Source: a virus. Taken from it: a stretch of DNA of 64,000 nt. The notes beneath the pieces were generated by a model, which saw nothing but the letters and a program-made list of their open reading frames with translations, was not told the DNA's origin and did not search any database. Positions 45,408 to 63,211 of this stretch are shown one piece after another; within the stretch, counting starts at the first letter, position 1, and every line of letters starts with the position of its first letter. The stretch lies in the IMG/VR virus record IMGVR_UViG_3300031485_000046; one strand, given 5' to 3'. Position numbers and translations under genes: made by a program.

Positions 45408-45412
45408 GCTGA

Positions 45413-45956: not shown

Positions 45957-45957
45957 A

Positions 45958-47714: not shown

Positions 47715-47982
47715 TGTCTGAATATGATTGCGCTATTTCTTCAAGAAGCGAATCCAGTTTAGAGGAAACAGTATCCAAATTACTCTGGATTTTTGCAAGA
47801 GTTTTTTCCGCTTCTTCTAAATCCTTACAACCCCATTTTTCCGCTAGTTCTTTCAACATATAGTCTTTCTTGCCTTTTAATTCAGCTATTTTTGCTTTAC
47901 CGTCTTCAATCTTCTTCTTTAGTACAAATAGTTCCTTTTCTGTCAGTTTAGAGGAGCGAATTGCCATCTTTATCACATCCAT
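47704..47982 (-). CDS. Coiled-coil protein
   Basis: 92-codon ORF overlapping the SbcC C-half by 11 nt. Confidence 0.5.
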   Translation of the reverse strand: MDVIKMAIRSSKLTEKELFVLKKKIEDGKAKIAELKGKKDYMLKELAEKWGCKDLEEAEKTLAKIQSNLDTVSSKLDSLLEEIAQSYSDNEK

Positions 47983-48271
47983 TCATATAGTTTTGGTACC
48001 GCCTACAATGGTCCTTTTTAACACAAGTATGGAAGCATATTTGAGCCGCAACCATACATTCTCTTGCAGTACACCACAAGAATTCTGTTTCATGCAAAGC
48101 AGCCAATTCCTCGAATCGTTTCATTCTGTTTCTGCTCAATACTTTAGGTTTTTCCCCGAATACCCACTGTCGAATCATAGGAGGATTAATTGTGCCGTTT
48201 ACGGGAACTTCAACAATTCCTTTAGGTTTTTTTAGGAATTTACGAGTTTTCTTCTTAGCATACTTTTTCAT
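47948..48271 (-). CDS. Small Cys-rich basic protein
   Basis: ATGA overlap with SbcD stop. Confidence 0.45.
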   Translation of the reverse strand: MKKYAKKKTRKFLKKPKGIVEVPVNGTINPPMIRQWVFGEKPKVLSRNRMKRFEELAALHETEFLWCTARECMVAAQICFHTCVKKDHCRRYQNYMNGCDKDGNSLL

Positions 48272-49170: not shown

Positions 49171-50219
49171 TTCTTACCTCCTTTTTTACTGCCGCATAAA
49201 GGACAAGTATCTGGAAATAGCGCATCAAACTTTTCCTGAAGTTTATTAGTTTCTTGCACTATATTATACATATCCTCGTCATTTTCCTTTATGTTTGTGA
49301 AAAGAAGGTATACATCTTTTTTATTATCGTAAAGTGTTCTTAGGTTTTGAAACAATTCAATAGCATTGTCTACTTGCGTTTCCTTAATAGGAAATGCTTC
49401 AAGTTTTTTTAATGCTTGTGATACTGCTTTTATTTCTGAAACAATGTCTGAAGCTCGAAGGAAAGTGTGTTCCAGTTGCGTTTTTTCTTCACGCAAAGTA
49501 AAATACTCCGTTACTTTTTTATCTATAGCAAAAAGAGGTTCAAATTCTTCCATTTGTAAATCAACCTCTTCTATGACATCAATAATCCTACTCAATTCCA
49601 TCAGGTCTTTGTCAAGTTTCTCTATCCTATTTTGAAGTTTCTCCGCACGGATAATTTTCTTTTCCATTTCAGAAATATGATTAAACTTAATAAGGGAATT
49701 TTCATATTCCTCTATTTTGCTTTCGTATACCCGTACATCCTGATTTAATTGCCTTTGCCACGATGCAAGTGTTTTCATTGTAGCATCAATAATGTCTAGG
49801 TGTGCGATCCTATTAAAATGAGCCGCTACCTCACCTGCACTAGAATCAAGTAAAAAGGGTCGGTCAAACTGCTGTTGCAGATTTACCTCGTCAATATTAA
49901 GGATTCGCACAACATCATCGGGAACATCTGTTTTGATAGCAGTCAGCTTGCTACCGTTTATTGTGTACCCATGTCCGCTATCATGTTTCCAACGGGTAAT
50001 CTCGTTATCAGGTACTTGAATAGTAACAGAAGTATCTCCGCCCCAGTCAGAACGAAAAGCATCTCCTAAGGGTCTATTCCAAATAACCCATCGTAATGCT
50101 CTTAGGATAGCAGTCTTGCCAGAGTCTGAGGGGCCAATGATAGCATTGACCCCTGCTTCAAACTCGAATTGGCTTTTCGTATGTGACTGGAAATTTCTTA
50201 GCTCCACTCGCTCAATCAT
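49167..50219 (-). CDS. SbcC/Rad50-like ATPase, N-terminal half with coiled coil and C-terminal CxxC hook
   Basis: Walker A GPSDSGKT; long coiled coil; CPLCG. Confidence 0.8.
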   Translation of the reverse strand: MIERVELRNFQSHTKSQFEFEAGVNAIIGPSDSGKTAILRALRWVIWNRPLGDAFRSDWGGDTSVTIQVPDNEITRWKHDSGHGYTINGSKLTAIKTDVPDDVVRILNIDEVNLQQQFDRPFLLDSSAGEVAAHFNRIAHLDIIDATMKTLASWQRQLNQDVRVYESKIEEYENSLIKFNHISEMEKKIIRAEKLQNRIEKLDKDLMELSRIIDVIEEVDLQMEEFEPLFAIDKKVTEYFTLREEKTQLEHTFLRASDIVSEIKAVSQALKKLEAFPIKETQVDNAIELFQNLRTLYDNKKDVYLLFTNIKENDEDMYNIVQETNKLQEKFDALFPDTCPLCGSKKGGKK

Positions 50220-50221
50220 AA

Positions 50222-50590
50222 TTATTTACCTTTGTTTTTCTGCAAAAGCTGAAAGAATACTTTTGCATCCATAATTACGATAGGATCTTTTCGACTTTTT
50301 TTCGCAAACAGCAACCATTCTGTTCCTGGAATGGTATTGGTTTGCGCTTGCTCTATCCAAGATGGGATAGACCAATTTTCCTGTGCTTTACACTCAACAG
50401 AGTATGGAAATTCTTTCAGCACTTTTGCTTCCATGCGAACATCTACGCCATTCTGCCCCATACCTCTAGATTCGATAGGGCAATCGTGGCCCCATTCATA
50501 CCCAGTTAGATTCGATATTTGTTCACAAACCCATTTCTGTAGCCTGCGACCTTTATCCTTAGCAGATGCAACAGATATCCGTTTTTTCAT
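50222..50590 (-). CDS. Putative PD-(D/E)xK nuclease (Holliday junction resolvase-like)
   Basis: GVDV...VECK arrangement; placed between recombinase and SbcCD. Confidence 0.5.
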   Translation of the reverse strand: MKKRISVASAKDKGRRLQKWVCEQISNLTGYEWGHDCPIESRGMGQNGVDVRMEAKVLKEFPYSVECKAQENWSIPSWIEQAQTNTIPGTEWLLFAKKSRKDPIVIMDAKVFFQLLQKNKGK

Positions 50591-51651
50591 ACCAATACCC
50601 TGCGTTTCCTATTGGAATCGAATTGTGATTCAACTTCTTCCCATAAATCAATTACAGCATCTTCCAATTTCTTTTCAAGCCCGTCTTCTTCAATCATCCG
50701 AATAGATTCTTCTAATGATTTGCCTAGTTTCGTATCTCCAAGCGCATAAACAGTATTACCGCTCATCTTCTTCAGGTATTGCAGATTCTCTCGAATATTA
50801 TCAATACCATAATCAAAGATTATAGTTAAAGGAGCAGAACGATACGGCTTCCATACAGAATTCTTGTATACTTCCACTTCTGTAGTTACGCCAATTACTC
50901 GTTCCACTTCCTTTTTGTTGATAGTTTTTACAACCTTTATCTTTTTAGGACTACTGAATTTCAGTCGAGTGGATGCATAAAATCCAATTGCAAATCCACC
51001 TGCGGCAGAAGTTTTTTCAGCATAAGGAGAAGAATCTCCTGAACTCCTTACCTGATTAGAACAGACCACAAGAAACTTCTTTTCCGTAATGACACGGCAG
51101 GTTTTTCGTAGCTGTTCCGAAAACTCCTTTGCCCTTCTCATTCCCATTTTGTCGCCTTCTTTTCCCTCTAATTCAAGGTTGGTAGAAAGAGCGGCTAGAG
51201 AATCCACAAATACTCCGTGCAAATTTCCTTCAGGTTCTGGTGCCCATTTACGAATAGGTTCAAACACTTCAGGTACAGTATCAGGGTGGTCTATCTCCAT
51301 TTCCTCTACATCAAGATCGAACATCGTAGCAAATTGCCTATTCAACCTTGCTTCGGGATCACGAAAGAAAATAGAACCACCCTGCCTTTGTATTGCACCT
51401 GCTATCTGACATAACACAACTGTCTTACCACTGCCTGATGGGCCAAATGCTTCTACGAGCACTCCACCCGGCAACCCACCACCTCTTACCCTTCCACCTG
51501 ATATAGCAAGGTCAAGCAACGTAGAACCCGTAGATACTTTGTGCGTAAAATCACCATCATACTCCTTTTTCTTTGCAGGTGGTTCACTCATTCTTTGCTT
51601 TATCTGGGTAGTTAATTTACTTGGCGTCAGCTTTTTCTTTCTTACCACCAT
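50587..51651 (-). CDS. RecA/UvsX-family recombinase
   Basis: Walker A GPSGSGKT preceded by STGSTLLDLAISGG; RBS AGGAGG. Confidence 0.8.
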   Translation of the reverse strand: MVVRKKKLTPSKLTTQIKQRMSEPPAKKKEYDGDFTHKVSTGSTLLDLAISGGRVRGGGLPGGVLVEAFGPSGSGKTVVLCQIAGAIQRQGGSIFFRDPEARLNRQFATMFDLDVEEMEIDHPDTVPEVFEPIRKWAPEPEGNLHGVFVDSLAALSTNLELEGKEGDKMGMRRAKEFSEQLRKTCRVITEKKFLVVCSNQVRSSGDSSPYAEKTSAAGGFAIGFYASTRLKFSSPKKIKVVKTINKKEVERVIGVTTEVEVYKNSVWKPYRSAPLTIIFDYGIDNIRENLQYLKKMSGNTVYALGDTKLGKSLEESIRMIEEDGLEKKLEDAVIDLWEEVESQFDSNRKRRVLV

Positions 51652-52027
51652 TCTCTATCTCCTCCATGCGTTTGATGATAGCTTCAATCTGGTCTACTGT
51701 AAGTTTCTTTTTATTCAGTAGACCACTGGCAGTAATCTTATACCGATCCATTGGTATATTATCAGCCTTAAGGAGTAAGAGCCGTTTTGCAATATCATTC
51801 ACCATTGTAGGCGTTGAAGGAGCTTCCTTGCTTAGTTCCTTCTCCACTAAATCACATATAACATGTGATCTGGACAGACCTTTGTACACCGTATATAGGC
51901 TAAACTTGTCGGCAAGGGCAGGGGGAAGATACCCCCCTGCCATCTTGTTCCGATCAAGAAGAGCCTTAGGCTTTTTTTCTACAGGAGCAATCACTTCAGC
52001 CTTTTTCTTCTTAATCGTCTTCGCCAT
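51617..52027 (-). CDS. Hypothetical protein
   Basis: RBS AAGGAGG; 136 codons. Confidence 0.6.
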   Translation of the reverse strand: MAKTIKKKKAEVIAPVEKKPKALLDRNKMAGGYLPPALADKFSLYTVYKGLSRSHVICDLVEKELSKEAPSTPTMVNDIAKRLLLLKADNIPMDRYKITASGLLNKKKLTVDQIEAIIKRMEEIENGGKKEKADAK

Positions 52028-52029
52028 AA

Positions 52030-53304
52030 TTAATCCTCCTTAGCATCCATACAATCGTCCCATTTCGCACAATCATCACATTCATCATATTCTTCACAAT
52101 CTTTTCCGAATACATGACCGTGCGGACACTTGTTCTTTCCAGCTTTCTTATTTACCTTTTCTTCTTTCTTTCCCTTTTTAGCAGGTTCTTCTTTCAGTTT
52201 CTTTCTACCAGTACCATCACAGGGATTGCATACGCCCCCTCTAGAATTCTTACCAGTACCCTTGCAAGCCACACATTTTTCCTTTTCCGGAATATCTTCC
52301 TCTTCTTCCTCTTCTTCTACTTCATCATCATCTTCATCATCGTCCGTATCCTCTTCATCCTCCTCTTCTTCATCTTCGTCATCCGTATCTTCATCCTCAT
52401 CTTCGTCAGAGATGTCGTCCTCGTCCTCGTCATCCTCGTCAGAAGAATCATCAGCATCGTCTTCATCCTCTTCGTCAGGATCAGCCTCTTTCTTTTTCTT
52501 GGATTTCATCATACTACGGACAGAAGTTCCATCTTCTTCTTCGTCATCCTCAGTTTCATACTCAAAGAATTTAGCTTCCAGCTCATTATACGTAAGCACC
52601 TGAAGAATCTCATCCAGATTAGGAACATCTTTCAGATCCTTTTCCTTATATGGCTTTTCACGTTCTTCAAAATCAATTCTGGAGGTAGCGGCGTACTTAT
52701 TCTTACCAAACTGTTCCTCGCTGAAACGAATCTTGAGAGTAAGCCCTTCATCAGGATCAGGGAATACAGCATTCGTATCATCTTCTTCAAGTTCCTCATT
52801 CAGCTTATCCTGAAAAAGATACTGCGAAATATCCCAAATATGAGGTTTCTTTTCGTGATCCTTTGAATTCAGAGGCACCACTACGTACAAGTTCCGAAGA
52901 GAAGGCTTGAGTGCCTTCAGTTCATCGTCTTCCGCATCTCCATCTTTCACTCGCTTAGCTCGATGTTCGCAGATAGGACATTTCTTACCGAAAGTTGTGA
53001 GGCAGACAAAGGTTTCCTTATTTGCCCCTATTCCGCGATGTACTTTATACGGCTTCTTATACCACTGCTCTCCAACAGTAGCAATACCAAGATCCACATT
53101 CTTATCCATATGCTTTGGGTCTGTAACAGTATATGGAAGAATGTCGAGTGATACTCTAGAACCCGGCTCTTCTTTGAATACTCGAATATTTTTAGGCAGA
53201 TTCAGATATCCGTATTTAGAACCTTGTGCTTTCTGCTGTTTCACATTACCAGCAACTGCCGCCCTGAATTTGCTGTTACTGCCCTTTTTTCCAAGTTTAG
53301 CCAT
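52030..53304 (-). CDS. Putative ssDNA-binding protein with long acidic D/E tract and Cys-rich C-terminus
   Basis: Position in replication module; zinc-ligand-like CPICEH; function inferred. Confidence 0.55.
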   Translation of the reverse strand: MAKLGKKGSNSKFRAAVAGNVKQQKAQGSKYGYLNLPKNIRVFKEEPGSRVSLDILPYTVTDPKHMDKNVDLGIATVGEQWYKKPYKVHRGIGANKETFVCLTTFGKKCPICEHRAKRVKDGDAEDDELKALKPSLRNLYVVVPLNSKDHEKKPHIWDISQYLFQDKLNEELEEDDTNAVFPDPDEGLTLKIRFSEEQFGKNKYAATSRIDFEEREKPYKEKDLKDVPNLDEILQVLTYNELEAKFFEYETEDDEEEDGTSVRSMMKSKKKKEADPDEEDEDDADDSSDEDDEDEDDISDEDEDEDTDDEDEEEEDEEDTDDDEDDDEVEEEEEEEDIPEKEKCVACKGTGKNSRGGVCNPCDGTGRKKLKEEPAKKGKKEEKVNKKAGKNKCPHGHVFGKDCEEYDECDDCAKWDDCMDAKED

Positions 53305-53623: not shown

Positions 53624-54118
53624 CTATGATTTCCTCGCTTTCTTTTTCTTCACCATAGAAGCGGCAACGGTTTCATTCACTTTCTCATTTTTCCGCGTCC
53701 TCTCTTCTGAAAGATTTCTAGGAATAGACGGCCCTGCAAAATACTGCATACCATGTAGCTTGATTAACCCATCAAGTGTATCTTTTCTGGAAGCGATCGC
53801 ATCGAATGCTGATTTAGCCATACCGTACCTATACTGTGCTTCGATTACTTCCTCCGCGGCTTTCTTGTAAGAATCTTGAAGGATGATTGTATCTGCTACA
53901 AGATTCTCGGTTATCTTGCCCAAACCAAATGCATCAGGATCTGCTCGTATCTCTTTACTCAACTCAGCCTTAACAGCGTCAAACTGTTCCTTCATATAGT
54001 CAAGTTCCTTCCTAGCTTCACTTACTACATCTCCGTATTTCTTCATCAGGATCGGCTGTTCAAGCAATTCTACATCAAGGGCAGTTTCGTCAATGTTTAC
54101 ATCAAGATTGTACTCCAT
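53624..54118 (-). CDS. Hypothetical protein
   Basis: 164-codon ORF in replication operon. Confidence 0.6.
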   Translation of the reverse strand: MEYNLDVNIDETALDVELLEQPILMKKYGDVVSEARKELDYMKEQFDAVKAELSKEIRADPDAFGLGKITENLVADTIILQDSYKKAAEEVIEAQYRYGMAKSAFDAIASRKDTLDGLIKLHGMQYFAGPSIPRNLSEERTRKNEKVNETVAASMVKKKKARKS

Positions 54119-54189: not shown

Positions 54190-55104
54190 TCAATTTTCTC
54201 CGCAAACAATAGAAAAACATGCAAACGTAAGTCCTGGAAATCCCGTATTGTAGAACGGTTCTATGAACTGTTCCATAACTAGCCCTGCTTGCATGTTCTC
54301 TCCCTTAAGGAGAATCGTGTTGCAGTAGCTAAGAACCAGCCTGCGAATTGACTCAGGATCTTGGTCTTTCAACTTAGTAAGAATTCCTGCCACTTTCTTC
54401 CAAGGTGCTTTTTGCATAAGAACACGGCATAATTCAATAGCATCTGATTGTACCTCAGCCGCTCTCTTTGCAACTTCTATCCGCATTTCAGCGGGCACAC
54501 CAAGCACCTGATCCAATATCTGCAACGCATTTCTTGGATGACCCTGACTATCCATAATAATCTGTTCATACACTTCTTTAGTCAATTTATGTCCTTCTGT
54601 TTTTACAACAGAACGAAGCAAGGTCATCATTTCTGAATCTGTTAACTGTTTCACCTGATACTGTGAACATCTTCCTTTTATCGTAGCAATCAATTTCTGT
54701 GGATCTGTCGTAGCCAATATATAGTAAACATGTGGTGGTGTATCTTCCAACGCTTTTAGTAGTGCGGACTGGGCATCATTGGTTAGTCGATGAACTTCAT
54801 CCAGTAACCACACTCTACATTTACCTGATAAAGGTTTATACTGCGATTGCCTGCGTATTTCCCTTACAGTTTCAATGCCTCGAAAATCAGCACTATCCAC
54901 TTCCTTAAAATCATCTTCTGAACAACCAAGTTCCGTAGCGATGATTCTACCAAGGGTAGTCTTACCACAACCGGTAGGGCCGTGCAGAAGATATGCATGA
55001 GGATGATCTTCTTTAGCCAGATCCGATTTGAGTGCCGCTACCACTTCTACGTTGCCAACAACCTCGTCAAAAGTAGCTGGACGATATTTATGATAAAGGG
55101 ACAT
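54190..55104 (-). CDS. Clamp loader subunit (AAA+; DNA polymerase III gamma/tau or RFC-like)
   Basis: KYRPATFDEVVGN, Walker A GPTGCGKTT, Walker B LLDEVH, GRCSQ sensor. Confidence 0.85.
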   Translation of the reverse strand: MSLYHKYRPATFDEVVGNVEVVAALKSDLAKEDHPHAYLLHGPTGCGKTTLGRIIATELGCSEDDFKEVDSADFRGIETVREIRRQSQYKPLSGKCRVWLLDEVHRLTNDAQSALLKALEDTPPHVYYILATTDPQKLIATIKGRCSQYQVKQLTDSEMMTLLRSVVKTEGHKLTKEVYEQIIMDSQGHPRNALQILDQVLGVPAEMRIEVAKRAAEVQSDAIELCRVLMQKAPWKKVAGILTKLKDQDPESIRRLVLSYCNTILLKGENMQAGLVMEQFIEPFYNTGFPGLTFACFSIVCGEN

Positions 55105-55109
55105 AGTAA

Positions 55110-55316
55110 TTACTCCCTAAACGGAATACACATTTGTCCTTTTGCAGGTGCACCAGATAGAGATACATTCGTACACATTCCGAGTACCTGTTTCATATCA
55201 TCCACAGCACATTCCTCGATCATTCCCACAATTTCTCCATCACGAATTCTAACCAGAAGATAATTGAACCCAATCTCGCTGAACTTACTAGGATACGCCA
55301 CTATTGTGAATTTCAT
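55110..55316 (-). CDS. Hypothetical small protein
   Basis: 68-codon ORF. Confidence 0.5.
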   Translation of the reverse strand: MKFTIVAYPSKFSEIGFNYLLVRIRDGEIVGMIEECAVDDMKQVLGMCTNVSLSGAPAKGQMCIPFRE

Positions 55317-55498
55317 AATTTACCCTCCTTCTCAATGCATTCAGTACACCTGACAGGTTTTCTGTTATGGCAGAACAACCTGATCCCATACATCAGACAA
55401 CCGTAGCATGTGTCCATATAATCATACGTAGTTGTGTCAAGGTACTCACATGATTCACAATACTTGTTCTTAGGCTTTGCTACTTTTATAATTGCCAA
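55313..55498 (-). CDS. Small Cys-rich zinc-finger protein
   Basis: Multiple CxxC pairs. Confidence 0.5.
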   Translation of the reverse strand: MAIIKVAKPKNKYCESCEYLDTTTYDYMDTCYGCLMYGIRLFCHNRKPVRCTECIEKEGKL

Positions 55499-55510: not shown

Positions 55511-57328
55511 TTATTTGAAATGGTAATCTCCCTTCTCATTCCAAGAACAATCAACAGGACACACTTCTGCTTCTACTTCCAAGGGTACATTTATCCAGCT
55601 CCAGTGCTTAGGTAAATCTTCACAAGTAATCCTATGAACAGTAGACGCAACCATATCTAATTCGTCAGGATGCACATCCAACACCATTGCGTCATGTATC
55701 TGTCCGATCAATCTGGATTTCCAGTTCTGTTCTCTGGATATCTTGTCAACCTGAATGAACGACCATAACAGACAATGAAATGCACTTCCCTGAATAGGAA
55801 TATTTATGCATTCATTCCTACGCATGATACCAGAACATCTGAATCCTGTGTACATGCTCACATACCCGTTTTTTTGATACCCTTCCCACCACTTGTCTTT
55901 CCAACGATTATACACTTTGAATCGCCTATTCCAAAAATCATCTTCAATTTTCTTGATATGGTCCGTAAACTTATCGAAGGAATCTAGCTTGTTTGCAATC
56001 AAGTGGTCGGAAATATGACCTCCGTCATGCTCAATGCCTTCACCTTTCTTCCATTTGCCTTTAGATAATCCGCACCATTTACAAGCAATATTTTCGGCGC
56101 AGTTTACATAATAGTCACCATAGAACTGCGGAAATACAAATCCGTTCTTTGCCGCTTGCCTCATCATTTTATGCGATGGTATACTCTTGTCTAACTTATC
56201 AAGTACAAATATCTGACAAGCCATATCACCGTGCATATCCGATGAAGGATCTTCAATGTACTTTCTCATAACAGGGTCATGATGGTAACACTCGCTGATT
56301 CTTACTTCCACTCCTGAATAGTCTATTTCAAGTAGCTGGTGACCTGGCTTAGGAAATATCGCTTTGCGAGTAATCTCCATAGCCTCTTTATCTCGCTTGG
56401 GAATATTTTGGAAGTTTATCCGCTCCGATGAATTATGTACGCATATTTGGTTCACGATAAAATTATGATATTTTTCCACTTCAATATCGTACACATCTAC
56501 CGGCTCATCAAGGTACTCTATTGTGTGGTCTGTATGATTAGACAATACCTTATTAGAAAGACGTGTATCTGATAACGCCCTCGCTTGCACGTATGTTCCA
56601 TCTATTAGACGGATTTTGTGCTCAGGTGTCACATCTAAGTATCCTTTCCCACCTCCACCGTTTATAGAGTAATGGATTCGCACAACTTTCTTATGTCCTG
56701 TTTTGCCAGCCCATATAACTTTTTGAATAGAAGGGCGGAGTTTATCGTCAAAACAATACACATAATCACCCTTCTTTACATTTTCAATAGGGGTCCCTTC
56801 TGGTTGTGCTTCAAAATCTTTCATTACCAATACTTTAGATCCTTTAGCTACACAAGAGCGAAATGTCTTTACTGTATGCAAATTAAAGAAAGGATGCAAG
56901 TATCCGCCTACTTGTTCTCTTATGAAAGCATCCAGATACGTATCTCGCACCTTTTTCAATTTGCGCATTTCCAAAATCCACTTTATCTCAGGAATATCAA
57001 TCTGGGAAAGTGCTTCATCGTCTGTTGCACCCTTGCCAGATGGTGTCAACTTTGCAGGGGTGATTTTCCTAACATTGTACAAAAGGTGTGCTAACTGCCA
57101 ATTAGAATCAGGGTTAGCCTTAGCACCATACACCTTCGTCCAATGCATATAGAATTTAGTATCCCTGAGTTTTCTATCCAATCGTGCTATTTTTTTGTCA
57201 AGGTACTCTTTTTTCTTTAAGCAGTAATCAACATCAATCCGCATTCCTTCTTGTTCTGCCCTCGCAAAAGCAAGGATGCCATCTTGCAATAGCTGATATG
57301 CTTCAGGAAGATTAGGTGTCAGTTGCAT
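55511..57328 (-). CDS. DNA polymerase family A, polymerase subunit (intein-containing)
   Basis: NFQNIP, motif A DYSGVEVRI, motif B RQAAKNGFVFPQFYG, motif C QIHDAMV; start at ATG 57326-57328 with AAGGAGGG RBS. Confidence 0.9.
   Translation of the reverse strand: MQLTPNLPEAYQLLQDGILAFARAEQEGMRIDVDYCLKKKEYLDKKIARLDRKLRDTKFYMHWTKVYGAKANPDSNWQLAHLLYNVRKITPAKLTPSGKGATDDEALSQIDIPEIKWILEMRKLKKVRDTYLDAFIREQVGGYLHPFFNLHTVKTFRSCVAKGSKVLVMKDFEAQPEGTPIENVKKGDYVYCFDDKLRPSIQKVIWAGKTGHKKVVRIHYSINGGGGKGYLDVTPEHKIRLIDGTYVQARALSDTRLSNKVLSNHTDHTIEYLDEPVDVYDIEVEKYHNFIVNQICVHNSSERINFQNIPKRDKEAMEITRKAIFPKPGHQLLEIDYSGVEVRISECYHHDPVMRKYIEDPSSDMHGDMACQIFVLDKLDKSIPSHKMMRQAAKNGFVFPQFYGDYYVNCAENIACKWCGLSKGKWKKGEGIEHDGGHISDHLIANKLDSFDKFTDHIKKIEDDFWNRRFKVYNRWKDKWWEGYQKNGYVSMYTGFRCSGIMRRNECINIPIQGSAFHCLLWSFIQVDKISREQNWKSRLIGQIHDAMVLDVHPDELDMVASTVHRITCEDLPKHWSWINVPLEVEAEVCPVDCSWNEKGDYHFK
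56432..56854 (-). mobile_element. Mini-intein (141 aa) inserted in polymerase
   Basis: Begins Cys (CVAKGSKV), TPEH block B, ends YHNFIVNQICVHN followed by Ser; flanking exteins reconstitute HTVKTFRS-SERINFQNIP. Confidence 0.8.
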
Positions 57329-58590
57329 CCTATGTACCCTCCTTGCTGAATCCATCGCATTTGTTTAGATGCTAACCGGTAAGTGAACAAACTATCCATA
57401 CCACAGTATATCAATAGTTTATTCCAAATATCAGATCCTACAGGAACATCAAGCAATTTGTTCATGGAATTGCTATCTTTATCATCCGCCCCTTTAAGAT
57501 ATGGAGCGACCTCATCATCATACCCTGCTACACCAAAATTGATATAGGTTTGTATCTTCAATCCTGTGATGTCTGGTCTGTTATCAAGAATGTGTGTAGC
57601 CAACATAGTATCCCATATCCAGTTTTTTACTTCATACCCCAGAATATTTTGTGTCCATGTGTGTTCAAACTTCAGATTTTGGGCAATCTTTCCTATCTTG
57701 TCTGATTGCAAAATTTCCTTAAGCAGTCTATTTCCTTTCTTACTTTTAGGCATCCCAAAAACTATTGCATCTTCAGGATTACTACACATGGACATGCAGA
57801 TGATTTTGTGCTTGCTTGTATCATGCGGTTTAAGGCCCGTCGTTTCATAATCAATAGCAATAGAAAACGGAAACTTTCTAGAAAGAAACTCTTCAAAAAT
57901 TCCTACTAGCTCACTTTCTGATTTTACTATCTTGATAGCCGTCATTTCATCTGGATATGTTTGCATAGACATGTCCACTGTATTTAATGCCCTGTCAAGG
58001 TCCTGTTTCCATACTGTTCGATATTCCTGTGCATCTTGTTTTTCTACAAACTCTGGATGAAATATCGGGCAGATCCACGTATTGTATTTCCTATCTGGAA
58101 TAGTAAATCCTCTCCATTTATTCATTCCACCTAAATTCTTTGTCCAGATAGAACCTATCACGGAGTTTAATGCTAGTTCACCTACAAGAATTATCACTTT
58201 AGGTTTATACTGCTCAATAGTAGATAGCACTCTTCGTCGGCAACATTGAACTTCTTTTGTCCACGGATTGGTGGTTTCCTTGGACCCTGAAGCATAGCAA
58301 GACAAAGCAAAGAGATTCAGACAGTCTTTGAACAAATCAACGCCTCTACGTTCAAATTCTCGCCTAAGCGTTGTTCCAAATCTGTCTTGCCACGGTTTGC
58401 CTACTCGATCATCTCTACTGCTTGGCATATCACCAATGACCATTATTTTCTTTTCAAATTCCCCGAATGGTGCCATTCTAGGAGACGAAATATCTTTATA
58501 CAACCCACAAGAAGCGCAAGAGAAAGCCTTATTACCACTAGGCCTAGTTTTAGATTTAGTTTCTTCTACTGAAAAGAATCCACTAGCCAT
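57319..58590 (-). CDS. DNA polymerase A accessory subunit: UDG-like domain plus 3'-5' exonuclease domain
   Basis: N-terminal CASCG and IMVIGDMPS (family-4 UDG-like, variant motif); Exo I IDYETTGL; separate ORF overlapping pol subunit by 10 nt. Confidence 0.85.
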   Translation of the reverse strand: MASGFFSVEETKSKTRPSGNKAFSCASCGLYKDISSPRMAPFGEFEKKIMVIGDMPSSRDDRVGKPWQDRFGTTLRREFERRGVDLFKDCLNLFALSCYASGSKETTNPWTKEVQCCRRRVLSTIEQYKPKVIILVGELALNSVIGSIWTKNLGGMNKWRGFTIPDRKYNTWICPIFHPEFVEKQDAQEYRTVWKQDLDRALNTVDMSMQTYPDEMTAIKIVKSESELVGIFEEFLSRKFPFSIAIDYETTGLKPHDTSKHKIICMSMCSNPEDAIVFGMPKSKKGNRLLKEILQSDKIGKIAQNLKFEHTWTQNILGYEVKNWIWDTMLATHILDNRPDITGLKIQTYINFGVAGYDDEVAPYLKGADDKDSNSMNKLLDVPVGSDIWNKLLIYCGMDSLFTYRLASKQMRWIQQGGYIGCN

Positions 58591-58594
58591 CTTA

Positions 58595-59602
58595 CTAACC
58601 TTTCATTTCTAGAACGCCAACATACTCCCAATTATCTCCTATGAACTTGATAGCGTTTTCACCAAGAATGCATTTTTTAAGCATTTTACTTACATCCTTA
58701 AGAAGTTCAGGACGAATAGTAAATTTCTTTTCCTCACCTTTATATTTCAGATTCATCTCTTCTTCAAACCAGCCAACTTCAGACTGACCACGAATAATCA
58801 TGCGTTTGGGCTTGATAGTTATTGTTACAGCATTACTTTCTGCTTCACTGGAAAAGATAGACGCACGGTCTAACACCTCTTCAATAGCTCTAGGCAATTC
58901 AAAATCCGCACCCTGCACATCCATATATTTCGACACATCTGGAAATGTATCTCCGAAGAAAGTTCGGCAAGAATACTCCGTACCTTTCTCAGTCTTGAAA
59001 TGAATCCACCCGTGCCCTTCTGCAATATGTGTGGGTACACATCCATTCAATCTCTTTATAGTGCTTGCTGGCAAAAGAAACGTAGACACAGGCATCTTTT
59101 CAGTTAACTTGTACACCATTATTCTATAACTGTCAGACGCTTCAACGGAACCTTTTTCTGTCACATTTACACAAGTAATGATCGGACGGCTCATATCATT
59201 GGAACAAGCAAAGGAAACAAATTTAAGCGCCTTCATAAGACCTTCAGGTACTTTCTTCCATTTGCTTTTCTCACCAATCGCTTCTAGAGGCATCCGTATC
59301 TTTTCTTGAAGAGTAAGTCCTGCTTTAGCTTTACCTGCTTTCATGCGAACCTCAGAACCATTTGCCTCTATTTCTACATCATTGGTTTTCATTTTGCACA
59401 GCACCTGATAAAACTCGTCAGCCTTGATAGCACCCTCAAGCCCATCTAATCCTTCCACAGGATGGGACACACTTATTTCGTCATTGAATGTCATTACTTT
59501 CCCATCCTTAAAAGCAAAGCAGGTAGACTGTTCAATGTGCTCCTTAGACGCAAGACCGGGCTTCACTATTTCAAGAGCTTCCAGAATATCTTCCCTATTC
59601 AT
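58595..59602 (-). CDS. Putative sliding clamp (DnaN-like)
   Basis: Size and position between polymerase and other replication genes; weak pattern similarity. Confidence 0.5.
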   Translation of the reverse strand: MNREDILEALEIVKPGLASKEHIEQSTCFAFKDGKVMTFNDEISVSHPVEGLDGLEGAIKADEFYQVLCKMKTNDVEIEANGSEVRMKAGKAKAGLTLQEKIRMPLEAIGEKSKWKKVPEGLMKALKFVSFACSNDMSRPIITCVNVTEKGSVEASDSYRIMVYKLTEKMPVSTFLLPASTIKRLNGCVPTHIAEGHGWIHFKTEKGTEYSCRTFFGDTFPDVSKYMDVQGADFELPRAIEEVLDRASIFSSEAESNAVTITIKPKRMIIRGQSEVGWFEEEMNLKYKGEEKKFTIRPELLKDVSKMLKKCILGENAIKFIGDNWEYVGVLEMKG

Positions 59603-60204: not shown

Positions 60205-61176
60205 TTATATAGTGAATAATCCTTTGCTTACTTGGAATTGAACTCCTTTGCGATATTCATTCACCCATTGCTCTAATCCTAGAATGTATCGGATGTTAAT
60301 TTCACAACGAACATCAAAGGATTGAATCTCATCATACGTGTACCCATCATCTTCAATCTGTTTTAATTTCCGAGGTGTAAGTACACCCATTCCTTTACTA
60401 GACCGTTGCTTCGATACACAAAACACCATCGGTTGCTTTGAATAATCAGGATTCTTGAATCCACCGATAGGGTACATGATAGAACCCCACGCGGCAACTA
60501 TTCTCCAAGTAGCGGCATCAGCACTAGTAAAAGGTAGCGTTTTCAGCACGGGCAACATCCATACTGCAAATCCGTGTGTTTTAACACGGATTCTATTTAT
60601 ATGGATGTAAGAAAATACTGACCGCATCCAAGATAGCCTAGATTGGACACTCATATCGTTTGCAGGTGACACTCCGATATAGTCAGTAAGTTCTACCATT
60701 TTGTGCAACCATTCCCAATCTTCTCCTTGATGGAAGACATGAATAGGAGTGATCCCTGCATCTTTCATCCTAAGAAGATTTTCGTATCCTTTCGCGGCCG
60801 CTGTATTGATAATTTTCTTATTCTCCGCAGTCTTCACTCGATTGAGATGTGTAGAAGTACCAGGAGAACCGGGGATCACATCGAGGTTGACTACCCTCAA
60901 CTTTTTATTATCATCCGCCGCTATTTGGATTGCCTCTTTAGCATAACTAATGTAGGCGTCAATGGGAATAGAATGACCTTTAGCCCATGCTGAAAACGCA
61001 CCTGAATCAAGAATGATGTTTCCATTTAATGTAGGAACTTGTCTGCACCATTCTTTAAGCTGTTTTGGATAGAGATAAGAAACCAGTCTGTTCGTAATCC
61101 GCCTGTTGAGTTCCTTACCGCGTTCTTCCTTAGGATTAAAAACAGGACCGGCAAAATACAAACGGACTGGCTTCAT
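60205..61176 (-). CDS. dpdA: DpdA-like tRNA-guanine transglycosylase-family protein (7-deazaguanine DNA transglycosylase candidate)
   Basis: ILDSGAF motif resembling TGT catalytic DSGGFQ; no zinc subdomain; adjacent to queF and queC. Confidence 0.65.
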   Translation of the reverse strand: MKPVRLYFAGPVFNPKEERGKELNRRITNRLVSYLYPKQLKEWCRQVPTLNGNIILDSGAFSAWAKGHSIPIDAYISYAKEAIQIAADDNKKLRVVNLDVIPGSPGTSTHLNRVKTAENKKIINTAAAKGYENLLRMKDAGITPIHVFHQGEDWEWLHKMVELTDYIGVSPANDMSVQSRLSWMRSVFSYIHINRIRVKTHGFAVWMLPVLKTLPFTSADAATWRIVAAWGSIMYPIGGFKNPDYSKQPMVFCVSKQRSSKGMGVLTPRKLKQIEDDGYTYDEIQSFDVRCEINIRYILGLEQWVNEYRKGVQFQVSKGLFTI

Positions 61177-61178
61177 TT

Positions 61179-61604
61179 TCAGTTACCTGTTCCGTCGTAC
61201 TCGGCAATCACCGAAATATCAGTACCACCTCTGCGATTGAAATTAGCCTCTATTCGCATGTGGTACGGTTTGCAAGCGTTCGACAGATCGTCCAGTATTT
61301 TGTTTGTAACAGACTCCATAAACGCTCCGTGCTGACGATATGCTCCCATGTATATCTTGAGTGCTTTCGTTTCCAAACAAAAATCCTTTGGAAAGTATCG
61401 AATCGTGATAGTGCCAAAATCAGGATTTCCTGTACGCGGACACAGACTGGAAAATTCCGTGAATACGAACTCCGTGGCGTATTGCCTGTCTTTGCACGGA
61501 TTATCAAATACTTCAAGAAGAGCTGGATCTGGATTATTGTACCTGTCGTACGGTACGACTGTTCCGAGGTTTTTCAGATGGTCTACATTCACTTTTCTAT
61601 CCAT
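61179..61604 (-). CDS. queF: NADPH-dependent 7-cyano-7-deazaguanine reductase QueF
   Basis: EFSSLCPRTGNPDFGT (catalytic Cys motif) and ETKALKIYM (QueF motif); start ATG 61602-61604 with GAGGAGGG RBS. Confidence 0.85.
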   Translation of the reverse strand: MDRKVNVDHLKNLGTVVPYDRYNNPDPALLEVFDNPCKDRQYATEFVFTEFSSLCPRTGNPDFGTITIRYFPKDFCLETKALKIYMGAYRQHGAFMESVTNKILDDLSNACKPYHMRIEANFNRRGGTDISVIAEYDGTGN

Positions 61605-62292
61605 TGTTTGCACCCTCCTCATAGAATACTGGGTCGATCAGATTGTTTTCTGCAAAGGCCTCAAGGCGTTCATAACAACTTCCACATTTTCCGCAAGGAT
61701 TCGGTTGGTTCTTGTAACAAGTTCTTGTAAGGTGATATGGTGCGTTATTTGCAATACCATACTGCACTATCTGACTTTTAGACATGTGAAGGAACGGTGC
61801 AAGTATATTCACATTTCTATCCGTACCAAGATAAATCGCTGTATCCATTGCTTTATGAAATTCTGGGCGACAATCAGGGTAAATAGCATGATCGCCTCTA
61901 TGAATTCCTATAGCAATATTCTCTATACCTTTTGACCACGCCATACCGGCTAGGATCGACAGGAACACTAGATTACGAGCAGGTACCACCGTCTGACTCA
62001 TATTCGATGATTCATAGTGTCCTTCCGGTATTTCTCCACCGCTTAGAAGCAGACTAGATTCCATTCCAGTAAATGCTCCGGACAGGTCTACAACTTCGTA
62101 GGTCAATTCGCAAGGAACGGCAGACACATAATATTTCAATACTGCGTCTGCCGCTCTTCGTTCGTACACATTGTGTTTGCTACCGTACTGGAAATTTACA
62201 CAATGGATTTTCTTGAATTCCTTGCGAATAAGCCAAGCAAGAACTGTTGCAGAATCCAGTCCTCCTGAGAAAGAAAGGACTGCGGAACGCAT
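61597..62292 (-). CDS. queC: 7-cyano-7-deazaguanine synthase QueC
   Basis: PP-loop SFSGGLDS; C-terminal CGKCGSC; start at ATG 62290-62292 (longer ORF-track N-terminus rejected). Confidence 0.85.
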   Translation of the reverse strand: MRSAVLSFSGGLDSATVLAWLIRKEFKKIHCVNFQYGSKHNVYERRAADAVLKYYVSAVPCELTYEVVDLSGAFTGMESSLLLSGGEIPEGHYESSNMSQTVVPARNLVFLSILAGMAWSKGIENIAIGIHRGDHAIYPDCRPEFHKAMDTAIYLGTDRNVNILAPFLHMSKSQIVQYGIANNAPYHLTRTCYKNQPNPCGKCGSCYERLEAFAENNLIDPVFYEEGANNG

Positions 62293-62293
62293 C

Positions 62294-63211
62294 TTACTTC
62301 TTCTTTCCAGCCTTCTTGCCAGCTTTCGCTTCCTTAGCCGGAGCGGTCTTTGCAGGCGCTTCCTTCTTTGCAGAAGCTTTCTTTTCCGCCATTTCTGCCT
62401 TCGCCTCCTTCTTTTTAGAAGATTTACTACCACCATCGTGCTTCACGATTTCCTTAGTGATCTTACTGCCTTTCTCACACTTGATATCCGTGAACTTCAC
62501 GATGTTGCCATCTTCCTTGTCAATGTAGATAAGCACAGGGAAGCGGCAATATTTAGGATTAGTCCCATCAGAAAGAATTGTAGAAAGAGCGGCGATGGTT
62601 GCGTCGGGGAACTGCTTTGCCGCAAGTTCGATCAGATCCTTTTTGCTGTACCGACCCTCATTGATAAGGTCGATAAAAAATTCGATCCTTTTGGCAGTCT
62701 TATTGCCACCAAATATCTCATCCTTCGTTTTCGTGGGCTTATCAGATTTTGCAGGCTTTTCTGCCTTCGGAGCCTTAGCAGGCTTTTCTTCCTTGGCTTT
62801 ACTCTTGCCCTTCTTAGGAATAGGAAGTACCTCTATTTCGTCTTCCTCTTCTTCCTCTACATCGTCACCGTCTTCGACATCTTCGTCCTCATCGCTTTCG
62901 TCCCCATCTTCCCCTTCCTCGTTGACCCCTTCATCGTCTTCGTCTTCATCGTCAGCTTCTTCGTCCCCTTCGACTTCTTCCTCATCCGCATCCTCCTCGT
63001 CGGCATCCTCTTCCTCTTCATCAGCATACTTAGCCTGAATCTGTGCAAGAATATCCATCGTTTCCTCGGAAAGTCCATCCTCTTCGCTTACAGCTTCAGA
63101 AGCCTCAAGCAGTTCAGCTTCCAGTTCGTCAGTACCGAGCTTTACATCAATGGGAGGCTCGATAATAGTATTAATCTCCTTAGCCGCCTTAACCAGTTCA
63201 CTTTTCTTCAT
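62294..63211 (-). CDS. Hypothetical protein with long acidic (D/E) and lysine-rich low-complexity tracts
   Basis: RBS TAGGAGGG; 305 codons. Confidence 0.6.
   Translation of the reverse strand: MKKSELVKAAKEINTIIEPPIDVKLGTDELEAELLEASEAVSEEDGLSEETMDILAQIQAKYADEEEEDADEEDADEEEVEGDEEADDEDEDDEGVNEEGEDGDESDEDEDVEDGDDVEEEEEDEIEVLPIPKKGKSKAKEEKPAKAPKAEKPAKSDKPTKTKDEIFGGNKTAKRIEFFIDLINEGRYSKKDLIELAAKQFPDATIAALSTILSDGTNPKYCRFPVLIYIDKEDGNIVKFTDIKCEKGSKITKEIVKHDGGSKSSKKKEAKAEMAEKKASAKKEAPAKTAPAKEAKAGKKAGKKK

What the first reader, a model, noticed from the sequence alone, without database searches (positions are those of the whole stretch)
55511..58590. Split family A DNA polymerase with UDG-like N-terminal domain
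The exonuclease part (with an N-terminal family-4 UDG-like domain carrying CASCG and a variant GDMPS motif) and the polymerase part are separate ORFs in different frames overlapping by 10 nt, the second with its own AAGGAGGG RBS. This could be a genuine two-subunit polymerase, a programmed frameshift, or a sequencing frameshift. The UDG-like domain may relate to the modified-base content of the DNA.
Basis: seen in the sequence. Interest (0 to 1): 0.5.

Follow-up and report, generated by a model that had tools for sequence, protein, structure and literature searches.

The report
Two-gene phage DNA polymerase with intein
This phage makes its replicative family A DNA polymerase from two adjacent genes, one for a uracil-glycosylase-like plus proofreading part and one for the polymerase part, which also carries a self-splicing mini-intein; the split is real and conserved across a large group of uncultured phages, so it is an uncommon variant of known enzymes rather than a sequencing error.

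Summary
On the minus strand, a 423-aa ORF (57319-58590) encodes a family-4 UDG-like domain plus a 3'-5' exonuclease. A 605-aa ORF (55511-57328) encodes the PolA polymerase domain. They overlap by 10 nt (ATGCAACTGA), and AAGGAGGG lies 8 nt upstream of the second ATG.

The split is genuine. Of 86 related viral loci, 81 are split, with all three frame offsets and spacings from -25 to +3884 nt; 3 are fused. Independent assemblies at 76-98% identity share the same 10-nt junction. This rules out a sequencing indel and makes programmed frameshifting very unlikely.

It sits in the TGR motif (TFRS|C...VHN|SSERINFQNIP). Near-identical relatives carry no intein, this mini-intein, or a full intein with an HNH endonuclease at the same site.

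The UDG domain keeps its four Fe-S cysteines and the motif-B His. Its motif A has degenerated from GEAPG to GDMPS in this subclade, so uracil excision is doubtful. The window's DNA-modification genes are for 7-deazaguanine and show no link to the UDG domain.

Fused UDG-PolAs and exo/pol gene fission (T7-like cyanophages) are both published. I did not find this combination described. Verdict: a new variant of a known kind, of moderate interest.

The parts
57319..58590 (-). Gene for the UDG-exo subunit (423 aa): an N-terminal family-4 UDG-like domain plus a DnaQ-like 3'-5' proofreading exonuclease.
   Evidence: Pfam PF03167 and PF01612 score above their cutoffs. The AlphaFold2 model has pLDDT 86 and pTM 0.84. 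The top Foldseek PDB hits are the phiLo UDG-PolA 9qhs_A, then family-4 UDGs, then the Klenow exonuclease. There are 906 homologues, and nearly all of the best 120 are 400-430 aa.
57976..58590 (-). UDG-like domain (aa 1-205). It carries an invariant N-terminal GFF (aa 4-6), CASCG (58504-58518), motif A GDMPSSRDD (58408-58434), Cys98 and Cys117, and motif B FHPEF (58048-58062).
   Evidence: The four Cys are invariant in 83 of 83 relatives. Motif A is GEAPG in 60 of 83 relatives but degenerate in the window's subclade. The motif-B His is kept here but lost in several close relatives. The PDB sequence hits are UdgX, TM0511 and the Thermus thermophilus UDG.
57346..57948 (-). 3'-5' exonuclease domain (aa 215-415). 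ExoI is D247/E249, ExoII is N305/E309 and ExoIII is Y395/D399.
   Evidence: These residues are conserved in 81 of 83 relatives. The domain superimposes on the Klenow exonuclease.
57337..57344 (-). Shine-Dalgarno sequence AAGGAGGG for the polymerase-subunit gene, 8 nt upstream of its ATG and inside the end of the UDG-exo gene.
   Evidence: Read directly from the sequence.
57319..57328 (-). The 10-nt overlap ATGCAACTGA: the start codon of the pol gene (57326-57328) and the stop codon of the UDG-exo gene (57319-57321). This geometry suggests translational coupling.
   Evidence: The same -10 overlap occurs in relatives at 76-98% identity (L001-L005, L012). Other relatives have -4 or -1 overlaps or gaps.
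55511..57328 (-). Gene for the polymerase-subunit precursor (605 aa): a PolA thumb/palm/fingers domain interrupted by an intein. The spliced product is 464 aa.
   Evidence: Pfam PF00476 matches in 3 stretches, plus PF14890. The spliced sequence aligns to Klenow across the junction. The intein-less homologue P0127 is 99% identical and 464 aa long.
56855..57328 (-). N-extein (aa 1-158), ending ...HTVKTFRS, which is the TGR motif.
56432..56854 (-). Mini-intein (141 aa, aa 159-299). It has Cys1 (CVAKGSKVLV), block B TPEH, block F VDVYDIEVEKYHNF and block G VHN, followed by +1 Ser. It has no endonuclease domain.
   Evidence: PF14890 scores 36.6 bits and TIGR01443 scores 29.9 bits. PDB intein hits include 6rpp at 4.7e-5. 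The element is precisely absent from L001, L002, L005 and P0127, and a full HNH version sits at the same site in P0121.
55511..56431 (-). C-extein (aa 300-605) plus the stop codon. It starts SSERINFQNIP and contains pol motif A (LLEIDYSGVEVR), motif B (RQAAKNGFVFPQFYG) and motif C (GQIHDA).
58595..59602 (-). Context: a sliding-clamp (beta-like) gene that ends 4 nt before the UDG-exo start codon.
   Evidence: Weak Pfam matches to DNA_pol3_beta domains, all below the Pfam cutoffs. The same gene lies upstream in relatives.
54190..55104 (-). Context: a clamp-loader (AAA+, DNA_pol3_delta2) gene downstream of pol, after two small ORFs (55313-55498 and 55110-55316).
   Evidence: No minus-strand terminator-like site was found between 53.5 and 61.5 kb.

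Best explanation
The replicative family A DNA polymerase of this phage is encoded by two separate, translationally coupled genes.

Gene 1 makes a 423-aa subunit. It holds a [4Fe-4S]-type family-4 UDG-like domain and an active DEDDy-type 3'-5' proofreading exonuclease. Gene 2 has its own strong RBS and an ATG that overlaps gene 1's stop codon. It makes the polymerase domain as a 605-aa precursor. A 141-aa class-1 mini-intein in the TGR motif must splice out to restore ...TFRS-SSERINFQNIP... and give a 464-aa active subunit.

The two polypeptides are inferred to assemble non-covalently into a Klenow-like exo+pol body with the UDG-like domain attached. This is the arrangement seen in fused UDG-PolAs. 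The fission point is a disordered linker between the last exonuclease helix and the first polymerase helix.

In this subclade the UDG domain probably serves mainly as a structural or DNA-guiding module, because motif A has degenerated (GEAPG to GDMPS). Most relatives keep a canonical UDG active site.

Shown: gene structure, conservation of the split, intein anatomy and presence/absence polymorphism, catalytic motifs. Inferred: heterodimer formation, translational coupling, splicing competence, loss of UDG catalysis.
For: Split conserved:
- Of the best 120 homologues of ORF1 (44-97% identity), 115 are 400-431 aa; the rest are three shorter proteins (273-303 aa), one intein-bearing protein (P0052, 738 aa) and none with a polymerase domain.
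- The best 120 homologues of ORF2 all lack an exonuclease domain.
- Of 86 distinct viral loci, 81 are split, 3 are fused and 2 lack pol within the fetched stretch. Gene spacing ranges from -25 to +3884 nt, and frame offsets are 39, 26 and 16.
- Unrelated genes lie between the two genes in many relatives.
- Among the best 150 representatives at 50% clustering, 117 are stand-alone and 33 are fused. There are 1162 representatives at E<=1e-30.

Independent assemblies: the identical junction occurs in independent assemblies, including an SRA-derived 60.6-kb contig with the same gene calls.

Fission point:
- Fused relatives continue straight through the junction.
- The AlphaFold2 model of the fused relative P0243 (pLDDT 89, pTM 0.87) has its only internal low-confidence segment at residues 408-418, the exo-pol linker.
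- The exo+pol part of that model superimposes on Klenow with TMt about 0.8.

Catalytic residues: exo and pol catalytic residues are conserved.

Intein:
- All splicing blocks are present.
- The element is a precise 423-nt in-frame insertion relative to 97-99% identical intein-less alleles. The flanking SSER codons are synonymously recoded.
- The same site is occupied by a full intein with an HNH endonuclease in P0121, whose exteins are 97% identical.

Literature: fused UDG-PolAs read dU ahead of the fork (10.1101/2025.03.26.645540). An exo/pol fission with a predicted preserved complex is reported in T7-like cyanophages (PMC10201439).
Against: - There is no direct evidence here that the two polypeptides bind each other.
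- In a quarter of the split relatives the genes are more than 300 nt apart, so tight co-translation is not required, and the UDG-exo protein could act partly on its own.
- Pfam's intein model only just passes its cutoff (36.6 against 35.8 bits), and splicing was not tested.
- The motif-B His and the acidic pair after motif A (RDD) are retained in the window, so residual or altered glycosylase activity cannot be excluded.
Confidence: 0.82

Rival explanations
1. Programmed -1 ribosomal frameshifting within the last ~45 nt of ORF1 produces a fused UDG-exo-pol polypeptide, either alone or alongside the separate products.
For: ORF2 is in the -1 frame. The ORF2 frame is open for 14 codons upstream of the MQL start. 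A Shine-Dalgarno-like GGAGGG lies in the overlap region; such elements are known to stimulate frameshifting in dnaX. Fused homologues exist.
Against: There is no X_XXY_YYZ slippery heptamer between the ORF2-frame TAA and the ORF1 TGA (direct reading). ORF2 has its own well-spaced RBS and ATG. Relatives have every frame offset (39, 26 and 16), and 56 of 81 have no overlap at all, many with intervening genes. The enzyme therefore works as two chains across the family.
Confidence: 0.03
2. The split is a sequencing or assembly indel, or a recent pseudogenising frameshift, in a normally fused gene.
For: Fused relatives exist at 34-46% identity.
Against: The identical 10-nt overlap occurs in independent assemblies from different samples (L001-L005, L012, L089, L120). 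Cluster P0001 alone holds 101 member sequences of 423 aa. Catalytic residues are fully conserved on both sides.
Confidence: 0.01
3. The UDG-exo protein is an autonomous repair or editing enzyme that does not form a stable complex with the polymerase subunit. The pol subunit then replicates without a bound exonuclease.
For: The genes are separated by 0.3-3.9 kb in 25 of 81 split relatives. The UDG-exo model folds confidently on its own.
Against: The two genes co-occur in the same orientation in 84 of 86 loci. In a rough NJ tree, the fused forms (L021, L072) sit nested among split ones, which suggests the two parts can be re-joined without loss. PolA polymerase domains are reported to need the exonuclease domain for stability (PMC10201439). 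The fused relative models as one rigid Klenow-like body.
Confidence: 0.1
4. The two halves are joined after translation by a split intein at the ORF1/ORF2 junction (protein trans-splicing).
For: Inteins are rife in this family. ORF1 ends ...GCN.
Against: Only about 20 residues follow the ExoIII helix in ORF1, and the polymerase homology starts at residue ~5 of ORF2. That leaves no room for an N-intein (~100 aa) or a C-intein (~35 aa). No intein model hits the termini.
Confidence: 0.005

Closest known systems
Fused UDG-PolA polymerases: SP15-like (YerA41, phiLo; PDB 9QHS), SPO1-like, and N4-like cluster 17 (Czernecki et al. 2023, PMC10201439; Missoury et al. 2025, bioRxiv 10.1101/2025.03.26.645540)
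   Same: [quoted passage not shown] Most relatives of the window keep the canonical UDG motifs GEAPG and HPS, as the active SPO1-like and SP15-like enzymes do. The window's own degenerate motif A recalls the inactive N4-like UDG.
   Different: Here UDG-exo and pol are separate polypeptides. Identity to cultured UDG-PolA phages is only 22-26%. The combined length is 887 aa against 1175-1306 aa, so the SP15-like Insert 1, Insert 2 and C-terminal domain are absent. No thymidine-hypermodification genes were seen. The locus is flanked by sliding-clamp and clamp-loader genes.
Exo/pol gene fission in T7-like cyanophage PolAs (S-SBP1-like; PMC10201439 section 32; also bioRxiv 10.1101/325100)
   Same: The fission is at the exo/pol domain boundary. 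The genes are adjacent and overlapping in different frames, and the downstream gene has its own start. A constitutive frameshift was likewise dismissed there by comparison with uninterrupted relatives. The new termini are predicted to be solvent-exposed (compare).
   Different: That is a different PolA lineage (T7-like, cluster 5, no UDG domain), and the event is described as recent. Here the N-terminal subunit also carries a UDG domain. The split spans a very diverse clade (down to ~35% identity), with frequent separation of the two genes and occasional fused forms.
Class-1 inteins with an HNH homing endonuclease and their mini-intein derivatives (for example the Pyrococcus horikoshii CDC21 intein, PDB 6RPP)
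   Same: The intein has Cys1, block B TxxH, block F, a terminal HN and +1 Ser. It is inserted in a highly conserved active-site motif. All three states are seen: empty site, full intein with endonuclease, and endonuclease-deleted mini-intein.
   Different: The host site is the PolA TGR motif, between the equivalents of Klenow L669 and S670. I found no paper in the searchable library that describes an intein at this PolA site. That is absence of a find, not proof of novelty.
Multi-subunit replicases with a separate proofreading subunit (Pol III alpha/epsilon; archaeal PolD DP1/DP2)
   Same: Polymerase and 3'-5' exonuclease are on separate polypeptides and work with a sliding clamp and clamp loader encoded nearby. 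This is a functional analogy also noted in PMC10201439.
   Different: The polymerase folds are unrelated. Here both parts are simply the two halves of a Klenow-type enzyme.

Membership tests
Family A DNA polymerase (polymerase domain) | Pfam DNA_pol_A above the gathering score, with motif A (DYSxxE), motif B (RxxxKxxxFxxxYG-like) and motif C (HD). | tested here: met
   PF00476 scores 131.2 bits against a cutoff of 34.3. The motifs are LLEIDYSGVEVR, RQAAKNGFVFPQFYG and GQIHDA. The protein aligns with Klenow at 3.4e-27. D336, K394, Y403/G404 and H545/D546 are invariant in alignment A1.
Family A DNA polymerase (polymerase domain) | A continuous TGR(L)SS..PN(L/F)QNIP motif. | tested here: met
   The motif is met only after removal of the intein: TFRS|SSERINFQNIP aligns with Klenow TGRL|SSTDPNLQNIP.
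DnaQ-like (DEDDy) 3'-5' exonuclease of PolA | The ExoI DxE, ExoII Nx2-3(F/Y)D and ExoIII Yx3D acidic residues. | tested here: met
   PF01612 scores 47.8 bits against a cutoff of 23.6. D247, E249, N305, Y395 and D399 are present. The ExoII acidic residue is Glu (E309) instead of Asp, and this is so throughout the family (81 of 83).
Family 4 uracil-DNA glycosylase | Four cysteines that ligate a [4Fe-4S] cluster. | tested here: met
   C25, C28, C98 and C117 are invariant in 83 of 83 relatives. C25 and C28 align with the UdgX CxxC. Cofactor binding itself cannot be tested here.
Family 4 uracil-DNA glycosylase | Motif A GE(A/G)PG with the catalytic Glu (E53 and P55 in phiLo). | tested here: not met
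   The window has GDMPS (E to D, A to M, G to S). Close relatives have GGMPS, LGMPS, VGMPS or GDFPS. In contrast, 62 of 83 family members have GEAPG or GEGPG. The catalytic residues are taken from 10.1101/2025.03.26.645540.
Family 4 uracil-DNA glycosylase | Motif B HPS with the catalytic His. | tested here: inconclusive
   The window has FHPEF, so His178 is kept and Ser is replaced by Glu. Several relatives at 59-77% identity have lost the His (FSPEF, FDPEY/FDPEF, HSPDY).
Family 4 uracil-DNA glycosylase | Curated family score (NCBIfam TIGR00758). | tested here: not met
   The score is 52.1 bits against a cutoff of 125.3. The Pfam superfamily model passes. The fold matches TM0511, the Thermus thermophilus UDG and UdgX with TMt about 0.7.
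Class 1 intein | Cys/Ser1, block B TxxH, block F, C-terminal HN, a +1 Cys/Ser/Thr, and in-frame insertion in a host protein. | tested here: met
   The elements are C159, TPEH, VDVYDIEVEKYHNF, VHN299 and S300. PF14890 scores 36.6 against 35.8 and TIGR01443 scores 29.9 against 15.6. A precise 423-nt presence/absence polymorphism was found.
Class 1 intein | Protein-splicing activity. | not testable with these tools
   Needs expression of the precursor and mass spectrometry or a gel assay.
Homing (endonuclease-containing) intein | An embedded homing endonuclease domain. | tested here: not met
   The window's intein is 141 aa with no endonuclease domain. The allele in P0121 carries HNH_3 PF13392 (32.1 bits) at the same site.
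SP15-like UDG-PolA subfamily | A C-terminal domain of ~80 aa plus Insert 1 (in exo) and Insert 2 (in thumb), with a total length of ~1175-1306 aa. | tested here: not met
   The combined spliced length is 887 aa. The polymerase subunit ends right after motif C, as Klenow does. No formal clustering was done.
Split (two-gene) PolA of the S-SBP1 type | Exo and pol are encoded by separate adjacent genes, with uninterrupted homologues showing fission at the domain linker. | tested here: met
   The lineage differs (not T7-like, and it carries a UDG domain), so this is an analogous fission and not membership of that clade.
Split (two-gene) PolA of the S-SBP1 type | The two products form a complex. | not testable with these tools
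   No multimer prediction was available. Only the fused relative could be modelled.

The most novel reading that the evidence does not exclude
The UDG-exo polypeptide is a modular accessory subunit, not merely half of a broken gene. On this reading, its disordered N-terminal tail with the near-invariant GFF motif tethers the enzyme to the phage's own beta-like sliding clamp, which is encoded immediately upstream. Its Fe-S UDG fold acts mainly as a template-strand guide and bridging domain. That would explain why the catalytic UDG motifs have been lost repeatedly while the four cysteines never are. The result would be a clamp-dependent, three-part PolA replicase (pol + UDG-exo + clamp), organised like Pol III alpha-epsilon-beta, in a large clade of uncultured phages.
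Probability: 0.25. Interest if true: 0.6.

Novelty: new variant of a known kind. Interest (0 to 1): 0.45.

Why it matters
Exo/pol gene fission in family A polymerases was reported only in 2023, for a small group of T7-like cyanophages. UDG-fused PolAs were structurally explained only in 2025. This locus shows both features combined, in a very large family that so far appears only in metagenomes. That family has more than 1000 clusters at 50% identity and no relative above ~26% identity among 50,697 deposited phage genomes.

The family offers natural material for three questions:
- How does a Klenow-type enzyme tolerate being cut at the exo/pol linker?
- What does the UDG domain contribute when its catalytic motif decays but its Fe-S scaffold is kept?
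- How do inteins cycle through a replication gene? Empty, HNH-bearing and mini-intein alleles occur at one site in near-identical genomes, and a second intein sits exactly in UDG motif A in relatives.

There is also a practical point. Gene callers and annotators will label the first gene 'uracil-DNA glycosylase' and may take the locus for a frameshifted pseudogene. MAG binning has assigned these phage contigs to wildly different phyla.

Tried and rejected
- Megablast of the locus against 50,697 phage records found nothing. tblastn found only relatives at 22-27% identity.
- An Rfam scan of the whole window found no family, hence no group I intron or known frameshift element.
- Promoter and terminator scans were at chance level, so they gave no positive operon evidence beyond the absence of a minus-strand terminator.
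- The split-intein (trans-splicing) idea for the ORF1/ORF2 junction was rejected on anatomy.
- Host assignment through GTDB genomes failed. All 31 loci are MAG contigs attributed to unrelated phyla (Methanolobus, candidate-phyla-radiation (CPR) bacteria, Deferribacterales, Nitrospiraceae and others), most plausibly mis-binned phage contigs.
- Literature searches for inteins in PolA, or for a split UDG-exo/pol enzyme, returned nothing specific.
- A test for wrap-around of the window against the 60.6-kb Logan contig found no terminal self-overlap.
- The NJ tree that places fused forms inside the split clade has no support values and is only suggestive.
- A direct prediction of the ORF1+ORF2 complex could not be run. 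The tool takes single chains only, so a natural fused relative was modelled instead.


Full report
**1. What is in the sequence**

Both ORFs lie on the minus strand.

ORF1 (57319..58590, 423 aa) matches Pfam UDG (PF03167, aa 41-191) and the PolA 3'-5' exonuclease (PF01612, aa 220-409).

ORF2 matches DNA_pol_A (PF00476) in three stretches. It also matches Intein_splicing (PF14890) at aa ~180-299.

The junction reads ...CAAGGAGGGTACATAGGATGCAACTGA:
- AAGGAGGG at 57337-57344
- ATG at 57326-57328
- TGA at 57319-57321
- overlap of 10 nt
- ORF2 in the -1 frame relative to ORF1

A further in-frame ATG at 57355 gives the 614-aa ORF in the mechanical list. The RBS, the N-termini of homologues and an independent gene call on a 60.6-kb SRA-derived contig all point to the 605-aa start.

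**2. The split is real, old and widespread**

ORF1 has 906 homologues in the 90%-clustered protein collection. Of the best 120 (44-97% identity), 115 are 400-431 aa long. Three are shorter (273-303 aa), one (P0005) is a 401-aa near-full-length protein, and one (P0052, 738 aa) is longer because it holds an intein. None has a polymerase domain.

ORF2 has 2131 homologues. The best 120 have no exonuclease domain and fall mainly into three length classes: ~460-495 aa, ~605-645 aa and ~780-840 aa.

I fetched 88 related loci from IMG/VR, of which 86 are distinct:
- 81 are split.
- 3 are fused: L008, L021 and L072.
- 2 show no polymerase gene within the fetched stretch.

Among the 81 split loci, the distance from the exo stop codon to the pol start codon is distributed as follows:
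- negative (overlap) in 25 loci: -4 is commonest, and -10 occurs in the window's own group
- 0-50 nt in 19 loci
- 51-300 nt in 12 loci
- more than 300 nt, up to 3884 nt, in 25 loci

The three possible frame offsets occur 39, 26 and 16 times. In the long gaps sit unrelated genes; by my reading of their motifs, which I did not scan against a family library, these include a GIY-YIG-like ORF, a C5-methyltransferase-like ORF and radical-SAM-like ORFs.

In a search of 1.84 billion cluster representatives at 50% identity, ORF1 finds 1162 proteins at E<=1e-30. Of the best 150, 117 are stand-alone UDG-exo proteins and 33 are fused UDG-exo-pol proteins.

The identical 10-nt overlap is present in independent assemblies at 76-98% identity from different samples: L001-L005, L012, L089 and L120.

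A sequencing indel is thus excluded. Programmed frameshifting is very unlikely for three reasons. There is no slippery heptamer in the ~45-nt window where both frames are open. ORF2 has its own RBS. The family as a whole works with the genes in any frame and at any distance.

**3. Where the cut lies**

When aligned with the fused relatives, the window's ORF1 ends and ORF2 begins in the short linker between the long C-terminal exonuclease helix and the first polymerase helix. The residues GGYIGCN and MQLTPN are extra termini.

An AlphaFold2 model of the fused relative P0243 (876 aa, 45% identical to ORF1) is confident overall (pLDDT 89.1, pTM 0.87). Its only internal low-confidence segment is residues 408-418, which is exactly that linker. 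The exo+pol body of the model superimposes on the Klenow fragment with TMt about 0.8.

The ORF1 model (pLDDT 86.2, pTM 0.84) matches the phiLo UDG-PolA (9qhs_A) best. Family-4 UDGs (TM0511, the Thermus thermophilus UDG, UdgX) match the N-terminal half, and the Klenow exonuclease matches the C-terminal half.

In a rough NJ tree, two fused forms sit separately inside the split clade. This hints at re-fusion or repeated fission, but the tree has no support values.

From all this I infer, but have not shown, that the two products reassemble into a Klenow-like enzyme with a UDG domain attached. Czernecki et al. predicted the same for the split T7-like cyanophage enzyme (PMC10201439).

**4.

Residues 159-299 of ORF2 (window 56432-56854) form a 141-aa class-1 mini-intein. 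It has Cys1 (CVAKGSKVLV), block B (DVTPEH), block F (VDVYDIEVEKYHNF) and block G (VHN), followed by Ser+1.

It interrupts the PolA TGR motif. After its removal, TFRS-SSERINFQNIP aligns with Klenow TGRL-SSTDPNLQNIP.

Relatives show all the states of an intein life cycle at this one site:
- L001, L002, L005 and P0127 lack exactly these 423 nt; the three loci are 96-99% identical in the exteins and P0127 is 99% identical over its aligned stretch.
- L003, L004, L012 and P0122 carry the mini-intein.
- P0121 (97% identical exteins) carries a ~359-aa intein with an HNH_3 endonuclease at the same site. The window's intein looks like a deletion derivative of it.

The codons flanking the site are synonymously recoded between occupied and empty alleles: TCA TCG GAG CGG against AGT TCT GAA AGG. 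The intein is also more diverged than its exteins (88% against 96-98% nucleotide identity between the window and L003).

Other inteins occur in relatives. One sits exactly in UDG motif A (GEAPG|C...VHN|SEED in P0052) and one sits in the exonuclease domain (L007).

**5. The UDG-like domain**

The four cysteines C25, C28, C98 and C117 are invariant in 83 of 83 family members. They are the [4Fe-4S] ligands of family-4 UDGs; C25 and C28 align with the UdgX CxxC.

Motif A is canonical (GEAPG or GEGPG) in 62 of 83 members, and motif B is HPS in 71 of 83.

In the window's subclade motif A has degenerated: GDMPS, GGMPS, LGMPS, VGMPS or GDFPS. Several close relatives have also lost the motif-B His. The window itself keeps that His (FHPEF).

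Degenerate motif A and a lost His co-occur in several unrelated branches (L013, L043, L057, L065, L087). So catalysis appears to have been given up repeatedly while the Fe-S scaffold never was.

By analogy with phiLo and YerA41, the ancestral role is excision of dU from the template ahead of the fork. In those enzymes E53, P55 and H178 are catalytic and the UDG domain sits over the fingers, reading the 5' template strand (10.1101/2025.03.26.645540). In this phage the domain is more likely structural or DNA-guiding, as proposed for N4-like enzymes (PMC10201439). This last point is inference.

**6. Context**

The locus sits in a tightly packed replication operon on the minus strand, in this order: sliding clamp (58595-59602), UDG-exo, pol, two small ORFs, clamp loader (54190-55104). 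No terminator-like site lies in this stretch.

Upstream of the operon are a DpdA-like gene, a QueF-like gene and QueC. Elsewhere in the window are a YhhQ-type transporter, ThyX, a dNMP kinase and a dUTPase. The modified base suggested by these genes is therefore a 7-deazaguanine, with ordinary thymidylate supply. Nothing ties it to the UDG domain.

The virion module is siphovirus-like. No deposited phage genome has a relative above ~26% identity. GTDB hits are all MAG contigs from unrelated phyla. The host is unknown.

**7. Comparison with what is known, and verdict**

Fused UDG-PolAs are known (N4-like, SPO1-like, SP15-like). Exo/pol fission in T7-like cyanophages is also known; it was described in 2023 as the first such case in PolAs.

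The present enzyme works like a UDG-PolA cut at the exo/pol linker. It is not a member of the SP15-like subfamily, because it lacks the inserts and the C-terminal domain. It is not a member of the T7-like split group either. Its UDG domain fails the motif-A test for an active family-4 UDG.

I found no description of a separate UDG-exo subunit, or of an intein at the PolA TGR motif, in the searchable literature.

I rate it a new variant of a known kind, with interest 0.45. It is solid and widespread, and it is mechanistically informative for polymerase modularity and intein dynamics. It is not a new principle.

Noticed in passing
window 60205-62436 (-) and 46440-47090 (-): A gene set for 7-deazaguanine DNA modification: DpdA-like transglycosylase (phrog_887, 60205-61176), QueF-like (PF14489, 61179-61622), QueC (PF06508, 61597-62436) and a YhhQ/Vut_1 precursor transporter (46440-47090). 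It concerns G, not U or T.
   Followed up: partly
window 58567-58590 (-), aa 1-8 of the UDG-exo protein: An N-terminal M-x-GFF is nearly invariant across the family, even at 34% identity. It lies in a tail that AlphaFold2 models as disordered (aa 1-35). A beta-like sliding-clamp gene sits immediately upstream. This could be a clamp-binding peptide, which would be unusual for a PolA.
   Followed up: partly
window 58595-59602 (-) and 54190-55104 (-): A family A polymerase is bracketed by its own sliding-clamp and clamp-loader genes in one operon. The clamp matches the Pfam beta-clamp models only weakly and below their cutoffs.
   Followed up: no
P0052 / L051 3731-5971; L007 5989-8313: Relatives carry further inteins in the UDG-exo subunit. 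One has an HNH domain and sits exactly inside UDG motif A (GEAPG|C...VHN|SEED). Another is a ~1-kb in-frame insert in the exonuclease domain.
   Followed up: partly
L006 1323-1721; L057 6520-7107; L069 6890-7486; P0140 and P0172 N-termini: A recurrent small gene that looks secreted and lytic-transglycosylase-like by eye lies between the UDG-exo and pol genes in some relatives. In P0140 and P0172 it appears fused to the N-terminus of the pol subunit. I did not scan it against family libraries.
   Followed up: no
window 43931-46428 (-): ThyX (PF02511), a dNMP kinase and a dUTPase lie together. This is a uracil-exclusion and thymidylate supply set alongside a polymerase whose UDG motif is decaying.
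   Followed up: partly
window 55313-55498 (-) and 55110-55316 (-): Two small ORFs (61 and 68 aa) lie between pol and the clamp loader. The first is Cys-rich (CxxC...CxxC...CxxC, zinc-ribbon-like). They have no family hits and are absent from some relatives, for example L006.
   Followed up: no
window 27575-28813 (+): A 412-aa ORF in the structural module combines methyltransferase-like (aa 38-159) and glycosyltransferase-like (aa 218-409) PHROG matches.
   Followed up: no
L089-L119 (GTDB genome contigs): Contigs of this phage family are binned into MAGs labelled Methanolobus, Shapirobacteria, Paceibacterota, Deferribacterales, Nitrospiraceae, Nitrosopumilaceae and others. This is probably binning contamination and a trap for host inference.
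   Followed up: partly
window 47106-53304 (-): A recombination and repair module: SbcC/SbcD-like nuclease genes (47106-50219), a UvsX-like recombinase (50587-51651) and an SSB-like gene (52030-53304). A weak UvsY-like hit lies at 53624-54118.
   Followed up: no
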